The notes beneath the pieces are model-generated. The model had not been told where the DNA came from. It did not search any database and worked only from the letters and a program-made list of their open reading frames with translations. From Elusimicrobiota bacterium (GTDB lineage: Bacteria; Elusimicrobiota; Elusimicrobia; Elusimicrobiales; UBA9959), in assembly GCA_027340875.1 (NCBI GenBank), contig DAIENX010000037.1, positions 1 through 10,408 of the forward strand: a DNA stretch of 10,408 nucleotides. Direction: 5' to 3'. Made by a program: the position numbers and the translations under genes. Below, one piece after another: positions 1 through 10,408 of this stretch. Position 1 is the stretch's first letter, and the number at the start of each line of letters is the position of its first letter.

Positions 1-25
1 CTATACTATCCTATGCTATACTATA
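1..25. repeat. Tandem CTATN pentamer run (5 units, may extend left of the window)
   Basis: CTATA CTATC CTATG CTATA CTATA read directly; AT-rich against a GC-rich background. Confidence 0.75.
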
Positions 26-59
26 TCCAGCAGTAAGCGTGTCTTCCCAAGGAGGCATT

Positions 60-203
60 ATGAACGTCCAGAAATACATGCTCCCGAAAGAGTTCAAGGT
101 GTGGATGTGCGCGACTCTCGGGCTTCTCAAAGACGGCAAGATGGGCGCCAGCGCCGACCGCTCCAACCGCATAAAGCTTGCCCTCGCTTACACCAGGAAA
201 TAA
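60..203 (+). CDS. Small hypothetical protein (47 aa), or the 3' end of a longer ORF entering from the left edge
   Basis: AAGGAGG at 49-55, ATG at 60, TAA at 201-203: MNVQKYMLPKEFKVWMCATLGLLKDGKMGASADRSNRIKLALAYTRK. The frame is also open back to position 3. Absent from the ORF track. Confidence 0.6.
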   Translation: MNVQKYMLPKEFKVWMCATLGLLKDGKMGASADRSNRIKLALAYTRK

Positions 204-218
204 CCAAGGAAGGTAACA

Positions 219-422
219 ATGAAACCACGCTACCAGATAGTCATCTCTCTGTCAGAGGACGACAACGTGAAACTGCAGCAGCTGCGGGAAGACGGCTACC
301 AGATAGTGGACATCTTCCGCCTCGGGCTCACCGAGGCGGAGGATGCCGTAAAAAAGGCCGGCATGGCAAGGCGCAAAGAAAAGCAGGACAAGGACAAGCC
401 GCAGCAGGACAAACTGTTTTAA
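219..422 (+). CDS. Small hypothetical protein, possible ribbon-helix-helix DNA-binding protein
   Basis: SD-like AAGGAAGG at 206-213. Alternating hydrophobic strand YQIVISLS, then helix-G-helix pattern (EDDNVKLQQLREDG..IVDIFRLGL). Fold inferred by eye. Confidence 0.6.
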   Translation: MKPRYQIVISLSEDDNVKLQQLREDGYQIVDIFRLGLTEAEDAVKKAGMARRKEKQDKDKPQQDKLF

Positions 423-544
423 CCCCTCCGCCTCCAACGCCTCCGCCCCCGCCGCCAAGCCTCCCGATAGACGCCTTTCAGAAAAGGGCGCCATGAGCCT
501 GTCCGAATAAGGCTTTCATGCACCTATTATGCCGTACAGACGCC

Positions 545-612
545 TAGGTCCTTTGGCCCATTGCCGCATAGGAACTATTGCCCTTTCGTTGCGGGGATGA
601 TATGGTTATAAT
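545..612 (+). promoter_or_regulatory. Putative promoter with tandem operator-like direct repeats and a consensus -10
   Basis: TAGGTCCTTTGGCCCAT (545-561) and TAGGAACTATTGCCCTT (569-585), 12/17 identical, 24 bp apart. TATAAT at 607-612. No good -35. Confidence 0.45.
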
Positions 613-618
613 ATGGAT

Positions 619-1056
619 ATGAAAAACACTAAAGCCGTTTTACTCATAATCCTCGGGGCCTTCATAATGGCCACCGGCTTCGCTTTCGCCGAGCAAGTCG
701 CCTATAAACAGGCGGAAGACGCAGTAGCCAAACCCCCTGAGGTGGTCTTTGGTAATTCCAACGCCTCGCTGCCCACCGGCACCGCCAGGACCGCGGCCGT
801 AAAGGACCCGGTGCAGGAGAAGCTGGACCAGATCAGGGCCTTAAACATCAAAGCCGCCGACCCGGCTCCCGCTCCGGCCCCGGCCCCCAAGCCCACCATC
901 ATGGATGGGGTCAAGAAATTCATCGGCGCCCACAAGGCCGACATACTGCTGGCCGGCGCCGGCGCCTACATCGGCTGGGCCCTGATGGGCACCGTGGCCG
1001 GAGCGCTCACCGGCGGCCTGGGCTTCCTGCTGTTCTTCATGTTCGCCAACCTGTAA
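619..1056 (+). CDS. Exported/membrane-anchored hypothetical protein (signal peptide, Pro/Ala linker, Gly-rich C-terminal hydrophobic segments); alternative start 613
   Basis: MKNTKAVLLIILGAFIMATGFAFA looks like a Sec signal with an AFA cleavage motif. PAPAPAPAP linker. C-terminal ILLAGAGAYIGWALMGTVAGALTGGLGFLLFFMF. Followed by a terminator. Confidence 0.8.
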   Translation: MKNTKAVLLIILGAFIMATGFAFAEQVAYKQAEDAVAKPPEVVFGNSNASLPTGTARTAAVKDPVQEKLDQIRALNIKAADPAPAPAPAPKPTIMDGVKKFIGAHKADILLAGAGAYIGWALMGTVAGALTGGLGFLLFFMFANL

Positions 1057-1068
1057 GCCCTGCAAGGC

Positions 1069-1107
1069 AAAAAGAAAGCCGGACCGAAAGGCCCGGCTTT
1101 CTTTTTT
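1069..1107. terminator. Bidirectional intrinsic terminator between convergent genes
   Basis: AAAAAGAAAGCCGGACC-GAAA-GGCCCGGCTTTCTTTTTT: GC stem with one mismatch, GAAA loop, T-tracts on both strands. Confidence 0.9.
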
Positions 1108-1119
1108 GCGCCCGGTCGC

Positions 1120-1494
1120 TCAGGCGGCGGCGAGCACCTTCTCGTCGTGGCCGGTTTTGTCCGGCGCGCTCGCGCTCATGCAGACCACGGTGGGCTTGTG
1201 GCCGCGGCATTCTTCCGCAGTGTACTGCGCGTAGGAGACTATGATCAGCAGGTCTCCCTTCTGCACCAGCCTGGCGGCGGCGCCGTTGACGCCTATAATT
1301 CCCTTTTTTCCGTAAAGCACGTAGGTCGAAAACCTCGCCCCGGTGTTCACGTTGTAGATGTCCACCTTCTCGTGCTCCAGCAGGTCGGCGGCGCGGCAAA
1401 GCGCGCGGTCTATGGTTATGGAGCCGTTATAGTTGATGTCCGTCTGAGTGACGGCCACCCGGTGCAGCTTGGATTTCATCAGCGTCCTGGTCAT
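1120..1494 (-). CDS. panD: Aspartate 1-decarboxylase
   Basis: KSKLHR...YNG/SITID autocleavage site, GARFSTY, NGAAARLVQKGDLLII. Confidence 0.97.
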   Translation of the reverse strand: MTRTLMKSKLHRVAVTQTDINYNGSITIDRALCRAADLLEHEKVDIYNVNTGARFSTYVLYGKKGIIGVNGAAARLVQKGDLLIIVSYAQYTAEECRGHKPTVVCMSASAPDKTGHDEKVLAAA

Positions 1495-2270
1495 TTTTTC
1501 ACCTTCTCTTTGTTCATCCTGGCGGCCGCGGCGGTGCCCAGCAGCACCAGGTCCGGTACGGCGTGGTCGAACACCTCCGCGTCCTCGAAAAGCCGGGAAA
1601 AGCCGCCGGTGCCTATCACCAGCGCGTCCCCGGAGAAATACTCGTCCTTTATCTTCGCCGCTATGCCCTTTATGGCCAGCAGGCTGGAATAGTAAAGCCC
1701 GGATTGTATGGAATCTACCGTGGTCTTGCCGACGAGCTCCGCCGGTTTGGTTATCTCCACGCGCGGCAGCTTGGCGGTGCGCTCGGCGAGGGATTCCATC
1801 GAAATGCGCGGGCCCGGCATTATCAGGCCGCCCAGATACTCCTTCTTCGCGCTGACGGCGCAGAAGGTGGTGGCGGTGCCCAGGTCCACGATGACGAGGT
1901 TGCGGCCCGGATAGAGGGCCGAGGCCGCTATGACGTTGGCAATGCGGTCAGCCCCGACTTCCAGCGGATTCTTGTACTTGATGTTCAGGCCGGTCTTCAC
2001 GCCGCCCTGCAGCAGGAAAGGCTCCAGTCCGAAGTACTTCACGGCCATGTGCTGCAGCGTGTAGATCAGGTCCGGCACCACGGAGCAGATGGCCACTTCC
2101 TTTATCAGCGACGGCTCTATGCCGTTCTCGCGCAGCGCGTTGCGGAAGAAAGTGCCGAACTCGTCGGAAGTGGCGTTGGAGGAGGTGCAGCGGAACTTGG
2201 CCTCCAGCTTCTCCCCGTCGAAGACGCCCGCGAAGATATGGGTATTGCCTACGTCCAGCGCTAGCAGCAT
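1491..2270 (-). CDS. coaX: Type III pantothenate kinase
   Basis: LDVGNT, SVVP, EVGADR, VDLGTATT, YLGGLIMPG, TGG motifs. ATGA overlap with panD. Confidence 0.96.
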   Translation of the reverse strand: MLLALDVGNTHIFAGVFDGEKLEAKFRCTSSNATSDEFGTFFRNALRENGIEPSLIKEVAICSVVPDLIYTLQHMAVKYFGLEPFLLQGGVKTGLNIKYKNPLEVGADRIANVIAASALYPGRNLVIVDLGTATTFCAVSAKKEYLGGLIMPGPRISMESLAERTAKLPRVEITKPAELVGKTTVDSIQSGLYYSSLLAIKGIAAKIKDEYFSGDALVIGTGGFSRLFEDAEVFDHAVPDLVLLGTAAAARMNKEKVKK

Positions 2271-2935
2271 GTCACGGCCTCCTTGAGGAAAGAGAACAGC
2301 AGTCCGGCCAGGGCCTCCGTCCCGGCCACGTCGGCCGTTTTTTTACCGCAGCGGTAGACATGGAAAGGGTGCGAAAGTCCCATCTCGGCCAGGTCGTTGT
2401 GCACCACCAGGTCTGCGCCGCGCACGGAGCGCGCCTTCTTCAGCGCCTCCGCCGGGGAGGCGCCCGAGGTGAGTTTAAAACCGACGACCAGCGGCGGCCT
2501 GCGGCCGGCCTTCAGCGCGTAGCCCTTCAGCCTGCCTATGATCTTGTAGTTGCGGCGCAGCGTTATCTTCAGCTCCGGGGCGGAAGAATCCAGCTTGGCC
2601 GCCACGCCAGCCTTGAAACGGCGCCCGCCGGCCTCTATGAGGACGGGGGAATAATCGGAGACCGCGGCAAGGTGCACCACCGCGTCGAAGTCCTCGGCCG
2701 CCAGCGCCTCGCGCAGGGCGGCGTCCAGCTCCTTAAATGTGGAATAGCGCGTCACGGAAACGCCGCGCCCGGCGGGGATCTCGCCGTGGGCCGCGCAGAC
2801 GGCATGGACCTCACAGTCCAGTTCCGCCAGACGGACGGCCAGCTCGGCGCCGGTGCGGCCGGTGCTGGTGTTGGCCACGCAGCGCGCCGCGTCTATCGGC
2901 TCGCGCGTGCCGCCGGAAGTGAGCAGTATCTTCAT
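2261..2935 (-). CDS. coaB: Phosphopantothenate-cysteine ligase (stand-alone CoaB)
   Basis: LTSGGTREPIDAARCVANTSTGRTG, HLAAVSDY, VGFKLT, DLVVHND. Confidence 0.92.
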   Translation of the reverse strand: MKILLTSGGTREPIDAARCVANTSTGRTGAELAVRLAELDCEVHAVCAAHGEIPAGRGVSVTRYSTFKELDAALREALAAEDFDAVVHLAAVSDYSPVLIEAGGRRFKAGVAAKLDSSAPELKITLRRNYKIIGRLKGYALKAGRRPPLVVGFKLTSGASPAEALKKARSVRGADLVVHNDLAEMGLSHPFHVYRCGKKTADVAGTEALAGLLFSFLKEAVTCC

Positions 2936-3507
2936 ACGCCGACGGGCTCCTTAACCGGGCGCGGCGAGAGAGCCGCTATAATTTCCTTATATATGGCCTC
3001 CGGCTCGAGCAGGCGGCCTTCGCCCACGTCGCCGCAGGCCTGCCGGCCGGTGGCGGTACCGAGCATCTTTACGCCCCATTCCTGCAGAGTCTTCACCGAG
3101 CGGCGCGTGGCCGGGTGCGCCCACATATTGCGGTTCATCGCCGGGGCGATAAGGTAGGGCTTGGAGAAGTCGAAGGCGAGGAAGATGGTGGAGATGTAGT
3201 CGTCCGCCACGCCCGCGGCCAGCTTGTTGATGATATTGCCGGTAGCGGGGCAGATCACGGCGAGGTCCATCCAGCGTGTCAGCTCTATATGCTCGAGCGC
3301 GGTGCGGTCCTCGAAGGTGTCCGTGTAGACGGGATTGTGCGTCAGCCCCTCGAGCGTGGACTTGCCGATGAAGTTCAACGCGTTCTTAGAGCAGACGGTC
3401 TTAACGTTATATCCTTCCTGCACGAGCCGCGAGATGACCGCGCAGGCCTTATAACAGGCTATGGAGCCCGTCAGTTGGAAGAGTATATTGCCCTTATTTT
3501 TTGACAT
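2932..3507 (-). CDS. coaC: Phosphopantothenoylcysteine decarboxylase (stand-alone CoaC flavoprotein)
   Basis: TGSIACYKA, HIEL, PATGNIINKLAAGVADD, APAMNRNMW, ACGDVGEGRL. Confidence 0.94.
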   Translation of the reverse strand: MSKNKGNILFQLTGSIACYKACAVISRLVQEGYNVKTVCSKNALNFIGKSTLEGLTHNPVYTDTFEDRTALEHIELTRWMDLAVICPATGNIINKLAAGVADDYISTIFLAFDFSKPYLIAPAMNRNMWAHPATRRSVKTLQEWGVKMLGTATGRQACGDVGEGRLLEPEAIYKEIIAALSPRPVKEPVGV

Positions 3508-4255
3508 TGTCTATCAGCCTCACTTTGCCCAGCTTCGCCGCGGCGAACCTGCGGCCCCAGCGCTCCTCGACGTAATCGGCCTTAAAGCCCAGCGCGGCCA
3601 GCTTGCGCTTTACCGCGGCAGGGGAGGCCTTCGAGCGCAGCAGGAGGTTCAGCGCGGGCGCGAGCGCCCGGTGCTCCGGCGTCAACAGCAGGTTGCGGGA
3701 GCTCATCGCGAGCCCGTCGCTTTCGCGCAGCGTGGGGCAGGGGACTATCTCCGTCTCCAGGAAGAAGGCGTCGGCCATGCCCTTGATCAGCTTGTACTGC
3801 TGGTAATCCTTCTCGCCGAAATAGGCGCGGCGCGCCCGCGCCAGGCTCAGCAGCTTGAGCACCACGGTCAGCACGCCGTCGAAATGCCCGGGCCTGTAAG
3901 CGCCGCAGAGCGCGCCGCTGTCGGCGGTCTCGGTGACGCGGTAGGTATAGCCGTCCGGGTACATGTCCGCCGCGGAAGGCAGCAGCAGGAAGTCCGCGCC
4001 GGCGGCCTTCAATTTGCGCGCGTCCTCGGCCACCGGGCGCGGGTAGCGCTTCAGGTCGCCCTTGTCGTTGAACTGCGACGGGTTCACGAAGATGCTCACG
4101 GCCGCAAGGTCGTTCTCGCGGCGCGCGCGGGCCAGCAGCGAGAGGTGCCCCTCGTGCAGCGCGCCCATAGTGGGCACGAAGCCCAGCGTCTTACCGGCGA
4201 AGAGCGGCCCCGTACGGAGCCGGCGCCAGGCGCTTATCGTCCTTATTATCCTCAT
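3494..4255 (-). CDS. panC: Pantoate-beta-alanine ligase
   Basis: GFVPTMGALHEGH, SIFVNPSQF, RPGHFDGV, FGEKDYQQ, DGLAMSSRN, VRLIDN. Confidence 0.97.
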   Translation of the reverse strand: MRIIRTISAWRRLRTGPLFAGKTLGFVPTMGALHEGHLSLLARARRENDLAAVSIFVNPSQFNDKGDLKRYPRPVAEDARKLKAAGADFLLLPSAADMYPDGYTYRVTETADSGALCGAYRPGHFDGVLTVVLKLLSLARARRAYFGEKDYQQYKLIKGMADAFFLETEIVPCPTLRESDGLAMSSRNLLLTPEHRALAPALNLLLRSKASPAAVKRKLAALGFKADYVEERWGRRFAAAKLGKVRLIDNVKK

Positions 4256-5036
4256 TCTTCCTCTTGCCGACCGGGGGGAAGACCTGCGCCTTCACCTCGC
4301 GGTCGAAATCCTGCAGCGCTTTGCCTATCAGCGCGCGGCCGTCCAGGGACTTCTTCACGAACGACGGCGCCTGCGGGTACATGCCGAGCAGGTCCTGCAG
4401 CACCAGCACCTGCCCGTCGGTATGCGGCCCGGCGCCTATGCCTATTACGGGGATCTTCAGCAGCGACGTGATGCGGCCCGCCAGCGGCGCGGGCACGCAT
4501 TCCAGCACCAGCGCGAAGCAGCCCAGCTTCTCCAGTTCTAACGCCTGGCGCACCAGCTTCTCGGCGGAGACCTCGTCCCGGCCCTGCGCGGCATAACCGC
4601 CCAGGCGGTTGATGGACTGCGGCGTCAGGCCTATGTGGCCCATCACCGGCACGTCGGAACCGACTATATGGGAGATTATCTCGGCGTGGCCGTTAACGCC
4701 CTCTACCTTTACGGCCTGCGCGCCGGCGCGGGCCAGCAGTTCCACCGCTTCCATCGCGGGGCGCAGGCCCTTTCGCGCGGCCAGGAAGGGCATGTCCGCT
4801 ATCAGGAGCTTGTCCTTCACCGCTCGCGCTACGGCCGAGGTGTGCAGGGCCATCAGTTCAGGCGTGGCCGCCAGCGTGGTCGGGTGGCCGTGCATCACCA
4901 TCGCCAGGCTGTCGCCCACCAGCACGCAGTCCACCGGGGACTCGGCCGCCATGGCGGCCAGGGTATAGTCGTAGGCCGTCACCATGGAGATGCGCGGCCC
5001 CGGCTTTTTATAGGAGTAGAAGTCAGTTATTCTCAT
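4191..5036 (-). CDS. panB: 3-methyl-2-oxobutanoate hydroxymethyltransferase
   Basis: MVTAYD, LVGDSL, ADMPF, AVKVEG, VMGHIGLTPQS, IGIGAG..DGQVLV. The 3' end overlaps panC by 65 nt. Confidence 0.96.
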   Translation of the reverse strand: MRITDFYSYKKPGPRISMVTAYDYTLAAMAAESPVDCVLVGDSLAMVMHGHPTTLAATPELMALHTSAVARAVKDKLLIADMPFLAARKGLRPAMEAVELLARAGAQAVKVEGVNGHAEIISHIVGSDVPVMGHIGLTPQSINRLGGYAAQGRDEVSAEKLVRQALELEKLGCFALVLECVPAPLAGRITSLLKIPVIGIGAGPHTDGQVLVLQDLLGMYPQAPSFVKKSLDGRALIGKALQDFDREVKAQVFPPVGKRKNEDNKDDKRLAPAPYGAALRR

Positions 5037-5709
5037 AGATCCTCGCCAGCAGGGAATAGACCCTGGCGTAAGGGTCGTTGCCGAGGGCTTTCACGTCGGA
5101 AAATACCGTCTTCCGGTCGCCGCGGCCGATGGGCCCCGTAAGGGCGCGCGACGGGTCCGCCGCGAAGTTCTCAAGCGAGGCGCGCAGGTAGCGCTGCACG
5201 GCCCCGCGCGGCACGCCGAAGCCCGCCAGCCCCTTCAGCGCCCTGCTCCAGAGGAGCACCGGCAGATTAGCGCCCAGCGCGCAGAGCGCGTGGTAGAGCG
5301 CCCTGCGTTCCCTGGGGACGCGGAACACCGGGTTATTGAATTCCGGCACCAGCGCTTTCAACGACACCCCCGGCTCAAGAGCGAAAGGGATGGCGCGGTA
5401 CTCGGCCAGGCTGAGCCTGCGCGTCGACAGCGGCATGAAGGGGTGCATGGCCGCGGCGCCAGGCACATGCAGGCAGCCGGAGAAATGCACGAGCTTCTTT
5501 GCCTTGAGGAAAGGATTGGAACCTATGAAGTTCTTTATCGCGTTGTCGCTGAGCAGGATGAAGACGGTGCCGCAGCCGCCGAGCACGGACTCGGGCGGCA
5601 GGCCGGAACGGCGCGACCAGACTTTGAAGGGTACTTTGAGCAGCCTGAAATAGGCCTGCAGATGGAGGGAAGCGCGGCCGGAGCCGGCTATGCCGTAGGG
5701 TTTCTTCAT
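5023..5709 (-). CDS. Rossmann-like/DUF2520 protein, probable PanG-type ketopantoate reductase (the ORF track starts it at 5739)
   Basis: GIAGSGRAS nucleotide-binding start, LLSDNAI, VHFSG, HPFM, YHALC, ALTGPIGRGD are typical of DUF2520 proteins. First gene of a pan operon that has no panE. Confidence 0.8.
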   Translation of the reverse strand: MKKPYGIAGSGRASLHLQAYFRLLKVPFKVWSRRSGLPPESVLGGCGTVFILLSDNAIKNFIGSNPFLKAKKLVHFSGCLHVPGAAAMHPFMPLSTRRLSLAEYRAIPFALEPGVSLKALVPEFNNPVFRVPRERRALYHALCALGANLPVLLWSRALKGLAGFGVPRGAVQRYLRASLENFAADPSRALTGPIGRGDRKTVFSDVKALGNDPYARVYSLLARIYENN

Positions 5710-5715
5710 ACCGTG

Positions 5716-5743
5716 GGTACCTGTCCCCGCAGGGATCAAGTCC
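5716..5743 (-). ncRNA. Candidate pan RNA motif (single stem-loop with two bulged A) in the operon leader
   Basis: GGACUUG(A)UCCC-UGCG-GGGACAGGU(A)CC folds with one bulged A on each strand and ends 6 nt upstream of the first pan gene ATG. Confidence 0.6.
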
Positions 5744-5752
5744 GCTGGGTAT

Positions 5753-5761
5753 ATTCTAGCA
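5753..5761 (-). promoter_or_regulatory. Putative extended -10 promoter of the pan/coa operon
   Basis: TGCTAGAAT (TGn-TAGAAT) on the minus strand, which places +1 near 5746, just before the hairpin. Confidence 0.5.
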
Positions 5762-5766
5762 AATGG

Positions 5767-7185
5767 CTATTCTTCGTTAAAAGCCGTTACCGTGTAGGTG
5801 TACAGCTCGGCCGAGCCGTCCTTCCAGGCGGAGGAGGACAGGCCGGCCTTCTCCGAGCAGAGCGAGTCCAGGAAGTCCTCCTTCCGGTCGAAGTGCTCCC
5901 AGACCTGCGGCAGGTAGGTGCCGGAGCGGCGGCCGCTCTTTATGTAGACGCCGTGCTCGCCCTGCGTCACTTCCTCCGCGCCGGAGACGCGGCGCAGCGG
6001 AGAGAGCACCGAGATCTCTATGCCGACCTTCTTCAGCTCGGCTTCGGAAAGCGGGGAGAAGCGCGGGTCCTCGAAAGCGGCGGCCCCGGCGTAGGAAGCG
6101 ACCATCTCCGCCAGCGTGCCGCGCGGCTCCAGGCTGCCTATGCAGCCGCGCAGGCGGCCGCCTATGGTCAGCGTGACGAAGACGGCCGCCGGCTGGTTGA
6201 ACTCCGGCCTTTTGTGGAGCCCCTGCTCCGGCGTGGTCCCGGTCTTCAGGCAGGCGGCTATGCCCGCGCGCGCCATGCCAAGCAGCTCGCGGCGCATCTC
6301 GCCGTCCAGCTCCAGCGCTCCGGCCGGCCTGGGCGAAGCCTCGGTGAAGAAACCCGCGCCGTAGCCCACCACGGCCGAGTCGTCGCCGGAGATCTTGCCG
6401 GAATGGGTGTAGAGGGCCAGCTCGAAATCGTTGCAGCCCAGTTCCAGCGCCGCGGCCGCGCCGGCGGTCATCGCGGCCTCGCCGCAGGCGGTGGTGTCCA
6501 GCCAGCGCGAGGCCTTGGAGAACAGCAGCCGGTTGGCCTGCGCGAAATAGGCGGGGGAGGAATTGCGCATCGCCTGCCGCAGCGCCAGCAGCACCGAGCG
6601 GTCGGAGGTCTCGGCTACGTCGCCGGGGGGATAATGCGCCAGGTCCGACGAGACGCAGAACAGCGCCTTGCGTTCCTTCATGGCGCGCCCGATGGCGCGG
6701 CCGGCATCCGCCAACAGGGCGGCGTCCGAAGTATTGAAAAGGATGGGGACTATCTTCACCTTGTTTCCTTTCAGCGCCTGCAGGAACGGGAGCTGCACCT
6801 CAACGGCGTGCTCGCTCTCGTGCGCGTCCGGCGTTTCCGAGAAAAGCCGTTTCTCGGCCAGCAGCTCGCGGCGCAGCCCGTCGTCTATTTCCAGTTTTCC
6901 CAGCGGTGTTTCGAAGGCCTCGCTGGAGCTGAGCGCTCCGTTCTTGAGGGCCATGGTGTGGCCGGTGGCCATGACCACCAGCGTGTCGAAGGATTCGTCC
7001 TTGAGCGCCGAGAAGGCCAGGCCGGCGGCGGCCCCGGAATAGACGTAGCCCGCGTGCGGCGCCAGTATGCCGGCCAGCCGGCCGGCGGGGGCTTTGCCCT
7101 TCTTCAGGTAGCCCTGCACAGCGGAGCGCAGCTCGGCGGGTTCCGCCTCGTAGAATTTACCGGCAACGGCAGGTTTTCTGGTCAT
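5767..7185 (-). CDS. amrB: AmmeMemoRadiSam protein B/A fusion (MEMO1 + AMMECR1 domains), copy 1
   Basis: MEMO motifs PAVAGKFY, APHAGYVYSG, EHAVEVQLPFLQ, SSDLAHY. AMMECR1 motifs AVFVTL, LRGCIGS, AFEDPRF, EISVL, GTYLPQV. GGAGGGG SD favours ATG 7185 over 7203. Confidence 0.92.
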   Translation of the reverse strand: MTRKPAVAGKFYEAEPAELRSAVQGYLKKGKAPAGRLAGILAPHAGYVYSGAAAGLAFSALKDESFDTLVVMATGHTMALKNGALSSSEAFETPLGKLEIDDGLRRELLAEKRLFSETPDAHESEHAVEVQLPFLQALKGNKVKIVPILFNTSDAALLADAGRAIGRAMKERKALFCVSSDLAHYPPGDVAETSDRSVLLALRQAMRNSSPAYFAQANRLLFSKASRWLDTTACGEAAMTAGAAAALELGCNDFELALYTHSGKISGDDSAVVGYGAGFFTEASPRPAGALELDGEMRRELLGMARAGIAACLKTGTTPEQGLHKRPEFNQPAAVFVTLTIGGRLRGCIGSLEPRGTLAEMVASYAGAAAFEDPRFSPLSEAELKKVGIEISVLSPLRRVSGAEEVTQGEHGVYIKSGRRSGTYLPQVWEHFDRKEDFLDSLCSEKAGLSSSAWKDGSAELYTYTVTAFNEE

Positions 7186-7201
7186 AGCCCCTCCGTTCCC
7201 C

Positions 7202-7240
7202 ATTATACATTTGTTTTCCGGGCCTGAAAAAAACTAAAAT
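7202..7240. promoter_or_regulatory. Overlapping divergent promoters for amrBA (minus) and tRNA-His (plus); mirrored at 9171-9209
   Basis: TATAAT on minus at 7207-7202. TTGTTT-18 nt-TAAAAT on plus at 7211-7240. Confidence 0.5.
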
Positions 7241-7249
7241 ATAGGTCAC

Positions 7250-7326
7250 GGTGGTTGTAGCTCAGCGGTTAGAGCGCTCGGCTGTGGCCCGAGAGGTCGG
7301 GGGTTCAAATCCCCTCAGCCACCCCA
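7250..7326 (+). tRNA. tRNA-His(GUG), copy 1
   Basis: 8-bp acceptor GGTGGTTG/CAGCCACC including G-1:C73. Anticodon arm CTCGG-CTGTGGC-CCGAG. T-loop TTCAAAT. Encoded CCA. Confidence 0.97.
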
Positions 7327-7451
7327 AATTTCAAAATTCGCCTTTTCGCCCCTCGCCGCGCCTTGCGCGGCGTTAAACTTTTGCAGTTTTTCCCACGGAA
7401 AACTCAGTTTATAAGAAAGCCGTTTCCCGCCGATGATTAATTACGAACCGA
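7315..7451 (-). pseudogene. Silent 3' fragment of the serine recombinase (alternative C-terminus)
   Basis: 7440-7315 translates to LIIGGKRLSYKLSFPWEKLQKFNAAQGAARGEKANFEIWGG*, colinear with the last 41 aa of the recombinase. Preceded by an in-frame TAA (7443-7441). Confidence 0.85.
7354..7382 (+). terminator. Putative tRNA-His terminator (mirrored at 9029-9057 on the minus strand)
   Basis: CGCCGCGC-CTT-GCGCGGCG followed by TTAAACTTTT. The second copy keeps the stem and changes the loop to CCC. Confidence 0.6.
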
Positions 7452-7536
7452 ATTATTTTCCTTATGGCCGCCGGTGCGGCCGGCCCAGCGCTGCTGCGCC
7501 TGGCCGGCCTTACCCGCGGCGCGGAGTGGCAGAATA

Positions 7537-7589
7537 GCACTTAATTCCGTCTTAGCCCTGCCGGGCAGGGCAAAGCCGGAATTAAGAGC
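7537..7589. repeat. 53-bp imperfect palindrome, candidate recombinase att/binding site
   Basis: GCACTTAATTCCGTCTTAGCCCTGCC-G-GGCAGGGCAAAGCCGGAATTAAGAGC, 23/26 positions complementary, ending 1 nt before the recombinase SD. Confidence 0.75.
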
Positions 7590-7602
7590 AGGGAGGCAAG
7601 GT

Positions 7603-9096
7603 ATGCAGAATCACACAATGCGGTATTTTCTATATGCGCGGAAGTCCACCGACGAGGCGGACCGGCAGGTGCTTTCCATAGAGGCGCAGCTCACCGAGTT
7701 GCGGGACTATGCGCGCAAAGAGGGCTTTGTTATCGCCCATGAGTTCATAGAAAGCAAAACCGCCAAGGAGCCGGGCCGCGAGGTCTTTAACGAGATGGTA
7801 GCGGGCCTGGAACGAGGCGCGGCCCACGGCATTATCGCATGGCACCCTGACCGGCTGGCCCGCAATTCTATAGACGGCGGGCGTATCATCTACCTGGTGG
7901 ACACGGCCAAAATACTGGAGCTTAAGTTCCCCACCTTCTGGTTCGACCCCACGCCGCAGGGCAAGTTCATGTTGTCTATCGCTTTCGGCCAGAGCAAGTA
8001 CTACATCGATAACCTCTCCGAGAATGTTAGGCGCGGCCTTCGCCAGAAGCTCCGCAACGGCGTTTTCCCCGCCCTCGCGCCCATCGGCTACAAGAACGAC
8101 ACGGAGAACCACACTATCGTCGTGGACCCGGTTTTGGCCCCCCTCGTAAAACTCACGTTCGAGCTTTACGCTTCAGGCATGTATCCCATCAGGGATATAC
8201 GCAATAAGATGAACGGCCTTGGGCTGAAGCGTTGGGAAAGAGAGTTGTCTAACTCGAACTATCAGAAGATCCTCAAAAATCCGTTCTACTACGGCGTCTT
8301 CCGGTATCTCGGCGAGTATTACGAGGGCAAGCACACGCCGCTTATCTCCAAGGCGCTCTACGACAAGTGCCAGGAGGTAATGACGCGCAAAAGCAGGCAC
8401 ACGCACGCACAGAAAGGTTTAAAGCCATATGTCTATCGCGCCGCCTTCCGCTGCGCGGAATGCGGCTGCTACATTACCACCGAGACGCAGAAAGGCCATA
8501 ACTACCTGCACTGCACCAAGCGCAAAGTGCCTTGCAGCCAGCTCTTCGTGCGCGAAGAGGTTATCGACGCCCAGGTGCGCGAGATCTTAAAAGGAGTTTC
8601 CTTACCCCCGGCCCTGGCCGCCGAGGCTCTTGATAACATCAAAAAGGAAAAATTAAAGGCGGCCCAGGCCGGGGAAAGAGCCGCCCAAAATCTGCGAGAT
8701 AAAATAGATATCCTGAATCAACGAATGAACGCACTACTGGATATGGTGCTGTCCGGCCAGCTTACGCAGGCCGAGTACGCCCTCAAAAAGCGTTCATTCG
8801 TTGAGGAGAAAAAGGAAATCGAAATGAAACTCGCCGCTTTTGCGCGGCAGGGAGATAAGCGGTTCGAACCGGTCAGGGCCTTCTATCAGTCCGCGAGTCA
8901 CGTCGGAGAGGCCGCGGTTTCGGGAAATCCGTCTGAAAACCTGCAAATATTGAAAAATATCGGTTCGAACTTAATTATTGGCGGGAAACGGATTTCTTAT
9001 AAACTGAGTTTTCCGTGGGAAAAACTGCAAAATTTTAACGCCGCGCGGGGCGCGGCGTCAGGGAATTTCCTATTTTTAAAGCTTTGGGGTGGCTGA
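7603..9096 (+). CDS. Large serine recombinase (resolvase + recombinase + Zn-ribbon/coiled-coil), 497 aa; alternative start 7618
   Basis: YARKS catalytic motif, Q..SIEAQL, ESKTAK, WHPDRLARN, PIGY, ILKNPFYYG, H.PLIS, CAECG..YLHC..C zinc ribbon, then a coiled coil. GGGAGG SD at 7591-7596. More AT-rich than the flanking genes. Confidence 0.95.
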   Translation: MQNHTMRYFLYARKSTDEADRQVLSIEAQLTELRDYARKEGFVIAHEFIESKTAKEPGREVFNEMVAGLERGAAHGIIAWHPDRLARNSIDGGRIIYLVDTAKILELKFPTFWFDPTPQGKFMLSIAFGQSKYYIDNLSENVRRGLRQKLRNGVFPALAPIGYKNDTENHTIVVDPVLAPLVKLTFELYASGMYPIRDIRNKMNGLGLKRWERELSNSNYQKILKNPFYYGVFRYLGEYYEGKHTPLISKALYDKCQEVMTRKSRHTHAQKGLKPYVYRAAFRCAECGCYITTETQKGHNYLHCTKRKVPCSQLFVREEVIDAQVREILKGVSLPPALAAEALDNIKKEKLKAAQAGERAAQNLRDKIDILNQRMNALLDMVLSGQLTQAEYALKKRSFVEEKKEIEMKLAAFARQGDKRFEPVRAFYQSASHVGEAAVSGNPSENLQILKNIGSNLIIGGKRISYKLSFPWEKLQNFNAARGAASGNFLFLKLWGG

Positions 9097-9161
9097 GGGG
9101 ATTTGAACCCCCGACCTCTCGGGCCACAGCCGAGCGCTCTAACCGCTGAGCTACAACCACC
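9085..9161 (-). tRNA. tRNA-His(GUG), copy 2, identical to copy 1
   Basis: Exact reverse complement of 7250-7326. Its 3' 12 nt overlap the last recombinase codons TGG GGT GGC TGA. Confidence 0.97.
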
Positions 9162-9225
9162 GTGGACTATATTTTAGTTTTTTTCCTGCCCGGAAAACAA
9201 ATGTATAATGGGGAACGGAGGGGCT

Positions 9226-10408
9226 ATGACCAGAAAACCTGCCGTTGCGGGCAAATTCTACGAGGCGGAACCGGCGGAACTGCGCTCCGCGGTGCAGGGC
9301 TACCTGAAGAAGGGCAAGGCCCCGTCCGGGCGGCTGGCCGGCATACTGGCGCCGCACGCGGGCTACGTCTATTCCGGCGCCGCCGCGGGGCTGGCCTTCT
9401 CGGCGCTGAAGGACGCTGACTTCGACACTCTCGTGATACTGGCCACCGGCCATACGATGGGCCTCAAGAACGGCGCGCTGAGCTCCGACGAGGCCTTCGA
9501 GACGCCGCTCGGCACCCTGGAGATAGACGACGGGCTGCGCCGCGAGCTGCTGGGCTATAAGCGGCTTTTCTCGGAGACTCCGCGCGCGCACGAGGCCGAG
9601 CACGCGGTGGAGGTGCAGCTCCCGTTCCTGCAGGCGCTCAAAGGCAACAAGGTAAAGATAGTCCCCATCCTTTTCAACACCTCGGACGCGGCGCTGCTCG
9701 CGGAGGCCGGCCGCGCGCTGGGGCTGGCGATGAAGGACCGCAAGGCGCTGTTCTGCGTCTCGTCGGACCTGGCGCATTATCCCCCCGGCGACATAGCCGA
9801 GACCTCCGACCGTTCGGTGCTGCTGGCGCTGCGGCAGGCGATGCGCAATTCCTCCCCGGCCTATTTCGCGCAGGCCAACCGGCTGCTGTATTCAAAGGCC
9901 TCCCGCTGGCTGGACACCACCGCCTGCGGCGAGGCGGCGATGACCGCCGGCGCCGCGGCCGCGCTGGAGCTGGGCTGCAACGATTTCGAGCTGGCGCTGT
10001 ACACCCATTCCGGGAAGATCTCCGGCGACGATTCCGCCGTGGTGGGCTACGGCGCGGGCTTCTTTACCGAGGCTTCGCCCCGGCCGGCCGGCGCGCTGGA
10101 GCTGGACGGCGAGATGCGCCGCGAACTGCTGGGCATGGCGCGAGCGGGCATAGCCGCCTGCCTTAAGACCGGGACCACGCCGGAGCAGGGGCTGCACAAG
10201 AGGCCGGAGTTCAACCAGCCCGCGGCGGTCTTCGTAACGCTGACCGTAGGCGGCCGCCTGCGCGGCTGCATAGGCAGCCTGGAGCCGCGCGGCACGCTGG
10301 CGGAGATGGCGGCCTCCTACGCCGGGGCCGCCGCTTTCGAGGACCCGCGTTTCTCCCCTCTCACCGAGGCGGAGCTGAAGAAGGTCAAAATAGAGATCTC
10401 GGAGCTCT
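9226..10408 (+). CDS. amrB: AmmeMemoRadiSam protein B/A fusion, copy 2 (3' partial; absent from the ORF track because there is no stop in the window)
   Basis: Manual translation gives 394 open codons from MTRKPAVAGKFY to KVKIEISEL, with 23 aa differences from copy 1. Confidence 0.92.
   Translation, partial: MTRKPAVAGKFYEAEPAELRSAVQGYLKKGKAPSGRLAGILAPHAGYVYSGAAAGLAFSALKDADFDTLVILATGHTMGLKNGALSSDEAFETPLGTLEIDDGLRRELLGYKRLFSETPRAHEAEHAVEVQLPFLQALKGNKVKIVPILFNTSDAALLAEAGRALGLAMKDRKALFCVSSDLAHYPPGDIAETSDRSVLLALRQAMRNSSPAYFAQANRLLYSKASRWLDTTACGEAAMTAGAAAALELGCNDFELALYTHSGKISGDDSAVVGYGAGFFTEASPRPAGALELDGEMRRELLGMARAGIAACLKTGTTPEQGLHKRPEFNQPAAVFVTLTVGGRLRGCIGSLEPRGTLAEMAASYAGAAAFEDPRFSPLTEAELKKVKIEISEL

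What the first reader, a model, noticed from the sequence alone, without database searches (positions are those of the whole stretch)
6003..10408. Large serine recombinase enclosed by a >=1.45-kb inverted duplication of host genes (amrBA + tRNA-His)
Seen: the order is <-amrBA, tRNA->, unique 1508 bp (7452-8959), <-tRNA, amrBA->. The arms are colinear with no net indel, and the only gene between them is the recombinase. Established: integrative elements normally leave short direct repeats at tRNA 3' ends, and invertase sites are tens of bp; neither gives kb-long inverted arms made of intact host genes. Inference: three models fit. (a) An invertible cassette that flips the recombinase gene. (b) Recombinase-mediated capture of the homologous locus from a sister lineage, joined head-to-head. 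(c) A chimeric contig of two co-occurring strains.
Basis: partly seen in the sequence, partly recalled or inferred. Interest (0 to 1): 0.85.

Follow-up and report, generated by a model that had tools for sequence, protein, structure and literature searches.

The report
Chimeric contig around a serine-integrase island
The kilobase-long mirrored arms are most likely two related bacteria's copies of the same locus wrongly joined by the assembler, through the built-in 105-140-base inverted repeat of a serine-integrase mobile island that sits next to tRNA genes.

Summary
Arms 6003-7458 and 8953-10408 are a gapless inverted repeat (1313 of 1456 identical), and the recombinase is the only gene between them.

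The arms are composite:
- **Inner 105 nt (7354-7458 / 8953-9057):** the recombinase element's own inverted repeat. This is a family hallmark, present in 27 of 29 related loci that have enough flank.
- **Outer 1.35 kb (tRNA-His + amrBA):** host DNA of two lineages.

Evidence that the arms come from two lineages:
- The right arm is 97.7% identical to another species-level genome of the genus (G023). The rest of the contig is 90% identical to that same G023 contig.
- G023 and two metagenome contigs carry this locus once, as empty sites.

Evidence of an assembly problem:
- The window is a whole 10.4-kb MAG contig, and the right arm runs to its end.
- The other contig end lies in a stretch 100% identical to G023.
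- Related assemblies often break at this repeat.

Best reading (about 0.8): a fold-back chimera of two co-occurring lineages. No reads were available to prove it.

The recombinase itself belongs to a widespread integrative-island family that keeps a second, inverted attP. Earlier notes of this scan describe it in Patescibacteria. Here it appears in Elusimicrobia, beside tRNA-His, Asp, Glu, Ser, Gln and tmRNA genes.

The parts
1..200 (.). Left contig end. It is 100% identical to the sister-lineage genome G023, and bases 1-141 are shared exactly with contig C110.
   Evidence: The rest of the contig is about 90% identical to G023, so this contig end sits where the two lineages' paths merge.
5767..7203 (-). 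amrBA fusion gene (Memo + AMMECR1), copy 1, lineage A (the MAG's own).
   Evidence: Pfam PF01875 and PF01871. It is contiguous with the pan/coa operon, which is 90% identical to G023.
7251..7326 (+). tRNA-His(GTG), copy 1.
   Evidence: ARAGORN and Rfam tRNA, 68 bits.
7327..7353 (.). Variable block just downstream of tRNA-His, on the host side of the attachment region; lineage A version.
   Evidence: Bases 7329-7353 are not homologous to the right arm. The same kind of block occurs in empty sites L108/L109.
7354..7458 (.). Left inverted repeat of the element (IR-L, arm of the inverted second attP). It carries a decayed copy of the recombinase 3' end on the opposite strand.
   Evidence: tblastn 7452-7318, 71%. 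Its inner end is identical to IR-L of L001-L003.
7459..7602 (+). Leader of the recombinase gene, with two palindromes. The second (7537-7589) is a conserved 20-bp hairpin directly before the ribosome-binding site.
   Evidence: (I5). Covariation: 10 of 20 pairs compensatory, 0 of 500 shuffles reach the observed score.
7603..9096 (+). Large serine recombinase, 497 aa. The stop codon lies inside tRNA-His copy 2.
   Evidence: Pfam Resolvase 8e-20, Recombinase 1.7e-12, Zn_ribbon_recom 5e-4; translation; 566 confirmed relatives.
8953..9057 (.). Right inverted repeat (IR-R). It encodes most of the recombinase's last 47 residues and is the element-side arm of the occupied attachment site.
9058..9084 (.). 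Variable block next to tRNA-His copy 2; lineage B version.
   Evidence: The same type of block follows tRNA-His in the empty site of G023. A 143-nt Logan contig of run X5 spans 8949-9091.
9085..9160 (-). tRNA-His(GTG), copy 2.
   Evidence: Identical to copy 1.
9208..10408 (+). amrBA copy 2, first 400 codons, cut by the contig end; lineage B (G023-like).
   Evidence: Pfam. 98% identical to G023:C166. Logan contigs of run X5 cover 9115-10278 with no differences.

Best explanation
**What is shown.** The recombinase is the integrase module of a widespread family of integrative islands.
- The gene runs towards the 3' end of a tRNA or tmRNA gene and ends inside it.
- Its last ~130 nt, together with the tRNA-proximal attachment sequence, are repeated in inverted orientation about 150-330 nt upstream of the start codon. 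I read this as a second, inverted attP.

**What is inferred.** Contig C39 is a fold-back chimera.
- The assembler entered the island's repeat from the tRNA-His side of lineage A, the MAG's own genome.
- It left through the wrong inner exit, ran through the recombinase gene, and came out through the other repeat copy.
- It then followed the tRNA-His/amrBA flank of a co-occurring sister lineage B (G023-like, about 90% identical to A) until B's thin coverage ended.
- So the 1.35-kb outer arms are orthologous loci of two organisms, not a duplication within one genome.

**What is open.** Where the misjoin lies: in the left repeat, or at the 3' end of the gene with its right repeat.
For: 1. **The arms belong to two lineages.** Window 9025-10400 is 97.7% identical to G023:C166, and 9161-10408 is 98% identical. 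Window 544-7386 is 89.98% identical to the same G023 contig over 6858 nt. The neighbouring contig C110 is 88% identical.
2. **Both amrBA copies are under purifying selection.** Mismatches by codon position are 15/13/82. There are 72 synonymous against 23 non-synonymous codon differences, and no stops. This is what orthologues look like.
3. **The locus is single-copy elsewhere.** G023 and the metagenome contigs L108 and L109 hold one tRNA-His with an empty site. Of 24 other genomes of the genus, 23 have a hit, and none has a second hit covering more than half of the arm.
4. **The contig geometry fits a graph artefact.**
   - The window is the whole contig and the right arm reaches its end.
   - No other contig of the MAG continues lineage B.
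   - The left end (1-200) is 100% identical to G023 and overlaps C110 by exactly 141 nt.
5. **The repeat is a family feature that breaks assemblies.**
   - An inverted repeat of at least 50 nt occurs in 27 of 29 loci with enough flank.
   - 61 of 65 loci have a convergent tRNA or tmRNA at the gene end.
   - Several related contigs start inside the repeat, and some are just the module bounded by it, such as L001.
   - In the same MAG, C44 starts in such a repeat and C22 carries one 141 nt from its start.
6. **The normal left flank is missing.** In 23 of 27 loci a conserved ~45-nt motif lies left of IR-L. In the window a tRNA lies there instead.
7. **Weak hint from depth.** In the three runs of one study, Logan contig depths are lower on the right arm than on the left: X1 7.6-7.8 against 8.4-11.5; X2 7.9 against 7.1-12.1; X4 4.4 against 5.4-7.4. 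Cover fades towards 10408.
8. **Lineage B occurs elsewhere.** Contigs of a run from another study (X5) match 9115-10278 with no differences.
Against: - No raw reads or read pairs could be examined. The laid runs are short Logan contigs, and none bridges either junction.
- The depth difference between the arms is small. The tool itself warns that contig depths cannot rank regions.
- In the final contig the two repeat copies differ at 11 of 105 positions, and their longest shared exact run is 40 nt. A collapse therefore needs either a smaller effective k, or a lineage A right repeat that is closer to its left repeat than what is seen here. That is an inference.
- Two other assemblies also place a tRNA directly before the left repeat (L034 and L036, 2 of 80 loci). 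L034 lies in the middle of a 71-kb contig between tRNA-Ser and tRNA-Glu. Such junctions could therefore sometimes be real products of the second attP.
Confidence: 0.8

Rival explanations
1. The structure is real in one genome. The integrase module carries two inverted attP copies, and each recombined with a tRNA-His attachment site: one on the resident chromosome (lineage A), the other on imported DNA of sister lineage B. The result would be a foreign chromosomal segment captured head-to-head.
For: - Both junctions have the anatomy of genuine host|element junctions: tRNA, then a lineage-specific 25-nt block, then the element repeat.
- The family does carry a second, inverted copy of its attachment region.
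- L034 shows a module between two tRNA genes inside a long contig.
Against: - It needs DNA of another species inside the cell, and a second crossover to close the chromosome.
- The captured arm stops after 1.3 kb at the contig end, and no lineage B-like contig continues it.
- Right-arm depth is not equal to left-arm depth, though this is weak.
- None of the 23 genus relatives with a hit has two copies.
Confidence: 0.07
2. The contig is chimeric, but its left half is real. In lineage A the island integrated through the second, inverted attP, so the recombinase gene points away from tRNA-His. The misjoin to lineage B then happened at the shared 3' end of the gene and the right repeat. This is a variant of the best explanation. 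It differs only in where the false join lies, and in implying that the spare attP works.
For: - The left junction (tRNA-His, block, IR-L, leader) is exactly the product expected from attB x inverted attP.
- L036 shows the same orientation at tRNA-Ser.
- L037 shows a recombinase 3' end followed by the inverted flank motif instead of a tRNA, i.e. an unsplit attP on that side.
Against: - 61 of 65 loci have the gene converging on the tRNA, and only 2 of 80 have a tRNA upstream.
- A plain misjoin inside the repeat explains the left junction without any new biology.
Confidence: 0.25
3. It is a genuine invertible cassette. Recombination between the long arms flips the recombinase gene inside one genome, and the arms are an old intragenomic duplication.
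For: - The gene keeps an open reading frame through the left repeat's opposite strand for 41 codons.
- The flipped form would give a 451-aa product.
- In many relatives the two repeat copies are 97-100% identical, which fits ongoing exchange between them.
Against: - Arms that exchange would be homogenised, yet these differ by 10%, mostly at third codon positions.
- One arm is 98% identical to another species.
- No relative has host genes inside the repeat.
Confidence: 0.03

Closest known systems
Phage-type large serine integrases (SPbeta SprA/YokA; the A118/LI, Bxb1 and phiC31 class)
   Same: Resolvase catalytic domain, recombinase domain and zinc-ribbon domain in the same order. The best long solved relatives are the YokA (SPbeta) chains 9dxh/9dxd, E about 1e-4 over residues 10-236. 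By inference the reaction is the same: attP x attB integration.
   Different: - Sequence similarity is low.
- The gene ends inside a tRNA or tmRNA gene.
- The 3' end of the gene is part of the attachment region and is repeated, inverted, upstream of the gene.
- No such layout turned up in my three literature searches. That A118, Bxb1 and phiC31 lack it is my recollection.
Dehalococcoides ssrA genomic islands with the integrase DsiB (PMC3146451; passages read through term search)
   Same: A ~540-residue serine recombinase sits next to the attachment site at the 3' end of a tRNA-like gene. The repeat of the target lies within the integrase gene, and variable cargo follows. Three of the 65 loci here target tmRNA.
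   Different: - That paper describes 20-bp direct repeats, a six-gene integration module with a second small serine recombinase (DsiA), and insertion in the T-loop.
- The word 'inverted' does not occur in its main text.
- Here there is one recombinase gene and a 105-148-nt inverted repeat.
- For the tRNA-His type, the crossover lies about 25 nt downstream of the tRNA.
Islands with a 'spare inverted attP' noted earlier in this scan in Patescibacteria (e1-995458, e1-804605, e1-817099, e1-863011, e1-2070747 and others)
   Same: The same family by sequence (shared words) and by layout: a convergent tRNA, a ~130-nt inverted repeat that includes the gene's 3' end, and cargo beyond it.
   Different: - Those notes concern tRNA-Ser in ultra-small bacteria.
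- Here the hosts are Elusimicrobia, and the targets also include tRNA-His, Asp, Glu, Gln and tmRNA.
- This copy has a tRNA on both sides, which I attribute to misassembly.
Fold-back or inter-strain chimeras in metagenome assemblies
   Same: Arms from two lineages, a join through a repeat, and contig ends that lie at stretches shared between strains.
   Different: The arms are 90% identical rather than 100%. This is therefore not a simple hairpin artefact of a single genome.

Membership tests
Large serine recombinase | N-terminal resolvase-type catalytic domain | tested here: met
   PF00239, E 8.1e-20, 71.8 bits against a cut-off of 23.3. The motif YARKST at residues 11-16 is in the translation. 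That this is the catalytic serine motif is my recollection.
Large serine recombinase | Recombinase domain followed by a zinc beta-ribbon | tested here: inconclusive
   PF07508 is met (47.9 bits against a cut-off of 21.1). PF13408 scores only 20.8 bits, below its cut-off of 25.3.
Integrative island with a second inverted attP (this scan's family) | The gene converges on a tRNA or tmRNA gene and ends inside it | tested here: met
   The stop at 9094-9096 lies inside tRNA-His 9085-9160. The same holds in 61 of 65 related loci.
Integrative island with a second inverted attP (this scan's family) | The 3' end of the gene plus the attachment sequence is repeated, inverted, upstream of the gene | tested here: met
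   7354-7458 against 8953-9057, 90%. Seen in 27 of 29 related loci.
Integrative island with a second inverted attP (this scan's family) | Conserved ~45-nt flank motif directly left of the upstream repeat, with cargo and a distal repeat of the target beyond it | tested here: not met
   The window has tRNA-His there instead. The motif is present in 23 of 27 relatives. Distal ends were found in G043 and G042. No tRNA-His-type flank is present in the MAG. I attribute the miss to the misjoin.
Site-specific DNA inversion switch | Both orientations of the segment occur in one population | not testable with these tools
   Only Logan contigs were available, and no joints were reported.
Dehalococcoides ssrA-island integration module | A companion small serine recombinase (DsiA) and further module genes next to the integrase | tested here: not met
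   Only one gene lies between the repeats. The module is described in PMC3146451.
Inter-lineage assembly chimera | The two parts match different reference lineages | tested here: met
   97.7-98% against 90% identity to the same G023 contig.
Inter-lineage assembly chimera | No molecule spans the join | not testable with these tools
   No raw reads were served for the holding runs.

The most novel reading that the evidence does not exclude
The contig is a true molecule. An integrase module with two inverted attachment sites has recombined with the tRNA-His sites of two different species-level lineages, joining their chromosomal DNA head-to-head. That would be a serine-integrase route for capturing foreign chromosomal segments.
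Probability: 0.07. Interest if true: 0.8.

Novelty: new variant of a known kind. Interest (0 to 1): 0.35.

Why it matters
For the finding as posed, the main value is a warning. The kilobase-long inverted duplication of host genes is probably not biology. It is what an assembler produces when two ~90%-identical lineages share an island whose integrase gene is bracketed by a 105-140-nt inverted repeat. Contigs of this shape in metagenome bins should not be read as invertible cassettes or gene capture without read support.

The real object underneath is more interesting. It is a large-serine-integrase island family that:
- is very common in Elusimicrobia and Patescibacteria (566 confirmed relatives in one scan);
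- sits beside many different tRNA genes and tmRNA;
- overlaps the target gene with its own stop codon;
- always keeps a second, inverted copy of its attachment region.

Three empty tRNA-His sites, plus one island with both ends (G042), place the crossover about 25 nt downstream of the tRNA. That makes the attachment sites directly testable.

I found no description of this layout in three literature searches. Earlier notes of this scan had already seen it on other DNA.

Tried and rejected
- **Rfam.** A scan of the window, C46, the repeated flank units and four related loci found only tRNAs. No family matched the repeated unit left of the elements.
- **Cover in run X5.** I first took the lack of cover on the left arm and on 8077-8438 as proof that lineage B occurs without lineage A and without this recombinase allele. 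The tool states that holes prove nothing, so only the positive matches (9115-10278 and 8949-9091) are used.
- **Loose end at 8935.** I first read 'AAACCCGAG' before 8935 as lineage B's own recombinase allele. One search showed it is the tRNA-Asp-type paralogue (L013, L014), which shares the next ~45 nt. That reading is rejected.
- **Neighbour gene of the empty site.** I searched the MAG for the orthologue of the acetyltransferase-like gene beside G023's empty site, to find lineage A's true far flank. There were no hits, by blastn or tblastn.
- **tRNA-His-type flank motif.** A search of the MAG found none. Of six pattern hits, only four real flank units turned up (C27, C46, C78, C84), none of them next to a tRNA-His-type tail.
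- **Leader alignment.** RNAalifold on the raw alignment gave only 3 pairs. Counting a named structure showed the hairpin.
- **Metagenome scan.** A scan with a lineage A-specific 26-mer found only two contigs, both of a 78%-identical relative and both with empty sites. It found no independent assembly of lineage A.
- **Literature.** Three full-text searches found no paper describing a serine integrase with an inverted second attP at tRNA genes. Only PMC3146451 was opened, and only passages found by term search were read. No supplements were seen.
Full report
**1. The observation**

The window is the whole of contig C39 (10408 nt) of a MAG with 112 contigs, 2.8 Mb and 63.6% G+C. The record titles of its closest relatives name Elusimicrobia.

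The inverted repeat is real.
- The repeat finder gives arms 6003-7328 / 9083-10408 (1326 nt, 91%) and 7354-7458 / 8953-9057 (105 nt, 90%).
- Compared without gaps, 6003-7458 and the reverse complement of 8953-10408 differ at 143 of 1456 positions. The longest exact run is 82 nt, across the tRNA.
- Each arm holds a tRNA-His(GTG) (the two are identical) and a Memo+AMMECR1 fusion gene.
- Between the arms lies one gene, a large serine recombinase with Resolvase, Recombinase and a weak Zn-ribbon match.

Three details change the picture.
- The gene (ATG 7603 to stop 9096, 497 aa) runs 144 nt into the right arm and stops inside the tRNA.
- A 25-nt block next to each tRNA is not homologous between the arms.
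- The right arm ends exactly where the contig ends.

**2. The inner 105 nt is the element's own repeat**

A paralogue in the same MAG (contig C46, 64% identical protein) converges on tRNA-Ser. It is bracketed by a 101-nt inverted repeat of 97% identity, but its left flank is not a tRNA.

A scan of one genome per species confirmed 566 relatives, and I examined the best 80 loci. They come mostly from Elusimicrobia MAGs and partly from Patescibacteria.
- In 61 of the 65 loci with a usable 3' flank, the gene ends at a convergent tRNA or tmRNA: His 10, Asp 6, Glu 16, Ser 24, Gln 2, tmRNA 3.
- In 27 of the 29 loci with more than 450 nt upstream and a complete 3' end, the gene's 3' end is repeated, inverted, upstream of the start. 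The exceptions are L034 and L073.
- In 23 of those 27, a conserved ~45-nt motif lies immediately left of the upstream repeat.
- Many related contigs begin inside the repeat, and some consist of the module alone bounded by it, such as L001. In this MAG, C44 also begins in such a repeat, next to tRNA-Asp. C22 carries one 141 nt from its start, next to tRNA-Glu.

Earlier notes of this scan had read the same family in Patescibacteria as integrative islands with a 'spare inverted attP'. I tested that reading in part.
- In G043 the flank motif occurs twice on one contig, inverted and 22.5 kb apart. The far copy is followed by the tRNA tail, a hairpin and host DNA. This is a distal island end.
- In G042 the distal end of a tRNA-His-type island carries the motif, then the 7-nt tRNA tail, then about 60 nt that repeat the native sequence downstream of tRNA-His.

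**3. Empty sites and the crossover**

Three records carry tRNA-His followed by about 60 nt (a variable block, a hairpin, then GTTAAAATTTTGCAG) and then unrelated host DNA, with no recombinase. They are G023 and the two metagenome contigs L108 and L109. Their homology with the window stops at 7386-7388 and 9023-9025.

I compared the three copies of this segment in G042.
- The tRNA-proximal copy shares its hairpin with the internal copy, but not its block.
- The distal copy shares the start of the block with the internal copy, but not its hairpin.
- By inference, the crossover lies between block and hairpin, about 25 nt downstream of the tRNA. In the window that is 7353|7354 and 9057|9058, exactly the outer limits of the 105-nt repeat.

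The 25-nt block of the right arm is of the type that the empty site of G023 has. It is therefore host DNA of that lineage.

**4. The outer arms are two lineages**

- The right arm is 98% identical to G023:C166. G023 represents another species of the same genus. Window 9025-10400 gives 97.7%.
- The remainder of the contig (544-7386) is 89.98% identical to the same G023 contig over 6858 nt. The adjoining contig C110 is 88% identical.
- The amrBA copies differ at 110 of 1200 positions, split 15/13/82 by codon position. There are 72 synonymous and 23 non-synonymous codon differences and no stops. These are orthologues under selection, not a decaying duplicate.
- G023 holds the locus once. Of the 24 other genomes of the genus, 23 have a hit, and none has a second hit covering more than half of the arm.
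- Of the 44 tRNA genes found in the MAG, only tRNA-His occurs twice with the same anticodon, apart from four tRNA-Met(CAT) and two tRNA-Pro(CGG) calls.

**5. Signs of an assembly-graph artefact**

- C39 bases 1-141 equal the start of C110 exactly. C27 and C46 likewise share their starts. That a de Bruijn assembler with largest word 141 leaves such overlaps is my recollection.
- Window 1-200 is 100% identical to G023, although the contig as a whole is 90%. The left contig end therefore lies where the paths of the two lineages merge.
- The right arm has no continuation in the bin.
- Four runs of one study hold 0.80-0.81 of the sampled words.
- I laid three of those runs. In all three, Logan contigs cover both arms in pieces of 200-600 nt. 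Per-contig depths are somewhat lower on the right arm, and cover fades out towards 10408:

| Run | Left arm depth | Right arm depth |
|---|---|---|
| X1 | 8.4-11.5 | 7.6-7.8 |
| X2 | 7.1-12.1 | 7.9 |
| X4 | 5.4-7.4 | 4.4 |

- The tool warns that such depths are weak, and no contig bridges a junction.
- A run of another study (X5) has contigs identical to 9115-10278, and a 143-nt contig across 8949-9091. Lineage B, with this repeat beside its tRNA-His, therefore exists elsewhere.

**6. How the contig most likely arose (inference)**

A segment bracketed by an inverted repeat gives a graph in which the repeat node can be left through either inner exit. With one strain the fold-back path would retrace its own nodes. 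With two strains that share the module, the second pass can take the other strain's flank.

At about 10x depth, words of 141 are sparsely covered. Joins made at smaller word sizes may therefore persist; this rests on my recollection of how such assemblers iterate.

The false join could lie in the left repeat. Its inner end is of the upstream type seen in L001-L003, and its outer end fits either copy. Or it could lie at the gene's 3' end, which is also shared with paralogues.

**7. What speaks against this reading**

- No reads were available.
- In the contig, the two repeat copies share at most 40 exact bases.
- Two of the 80 loci (L034, L036) also have a tRNA directly before the upstream repeat.
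- L034 is a mosaic in the middle of a 71-kb contig: tRNA-Ser, a Ser-type leader and about 400 codons, then a Glu-type 3' end and tRNA-Glu.
- L037 has the flank motif, inverted, after the gene instead of a tRNA.
- These could be the same artefact. They could also show that the second attP is sometimes used.
- I put a real two-species molecule at about 0.07. I put a real alternative orientation in lineage A, with the contig still chimeric, at about 0.25.

**8. Comparison with what is known**

The protein is a large serine recombinase. Its nearest long solved relatives are the SPbeta YokA/SprA chains, at E about 1e-4.

The nearest described system I found is the Dehalococcoides ssrA island family with DsiB (PMC3146451; passages read). 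It shares a serine integrase next to the 3' end of a tRNA-like gene, with the repeat of the target lying within the integrase gene. It differs in three ways: 20-bp direct repeats, a six-gene module, and no inverted copy.

Three full-text searches gave no description of the inverted second attP. The scan itself had noted it before on other DNA.

**9. Verdict**

- The kb-long inverted duplication is probably not a feature of any one genome.
- The inner repeat and the recombinase are a genuine member of an apparently undescribed variant of serine-integrase islands.

Noticed in passing
window 7537-7589 (alignment A1 columns 21-73): A 20-bp hairpin or palindrome directly upstream of the recombinase ribosome-binding site is conserved in 42 aligned leaders. 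93.9% of cells pair, 10 of 20 pairs show compensatory changes, and 0 of 500 shuffles reach the observed score. It could be an operator or a 5'-UTR structure. A second palindrome lies at about 7466-7520.
   Followed up: partly
G000 contigs C78:12716-13060, C11 (several places), C84 end, C27 and C46 starts; L003:3387-3722: A repeated non-coding unit of about 270-350 nt precedes the conserved flank motif of the islands. It also occurs followed only by a tRNA-tail-like CCGCCA and a terminator. It has no Rfam match. It probably forms long inverted repeats around island cargo, as in G043.
   Followed up: partly
window 1-400: Bases 1-200 are 100% and 201-400 are 96% identical to the sister-species genome G023. 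The next 7 kb average about 90%. This is either recent exchange between the lineages or a second strain switch at the contig end.
   Followed up: partly
L034:3560-5600: A recombinase module lies between tRNA-Ser(TGA) and tRNA-Glu(TTC) in the middle of a 71-kb contig. Its leader and first ~400 codons are of the Ser type. The last ~95 codons and the right repeat are of the Glu type, 97-99% identical to L053. It is either a natural recombinant or a misjoin.
   Followed up: partly
L030, L038, L044: Three family members end at a tmRNA gene instead of a tRNA. This echoes the ssrA islands of Dehalococcoides.
   Followed up: no
G000:C44:1-140 and C22:142-250: Two more contigs of the MAG carry an island repeat near their start: C44 starts in one next to tRNA-Asp, and C22 holds one 141 nt from its start next to tRNA-Glu(CTC). 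The genome therefore probably holds at least four such islands, and their integrase genes are missing from the bin.
   Followed up: partly
window 1120-5739: A compact pantothenate/CoA operon lies on the minus strand: panD, coaX, a DFP-domain ORF and a flavoprotein ORF (coaBC as two overlapping ORFs, 2261-2935 and 2932-3507), panC, panB and a DUF2520 protein. In L003 this operon is absent from the equivalent position.
   Followed up: no
window 8674-8964: In runs X1 and X2 the only Logan contig over this part of the gene carries 5 other letters, at depth about 24-26. That is higher than either arm. At least one more allele of the gene's 3' end is therefore present in the community.
   Followed up: no
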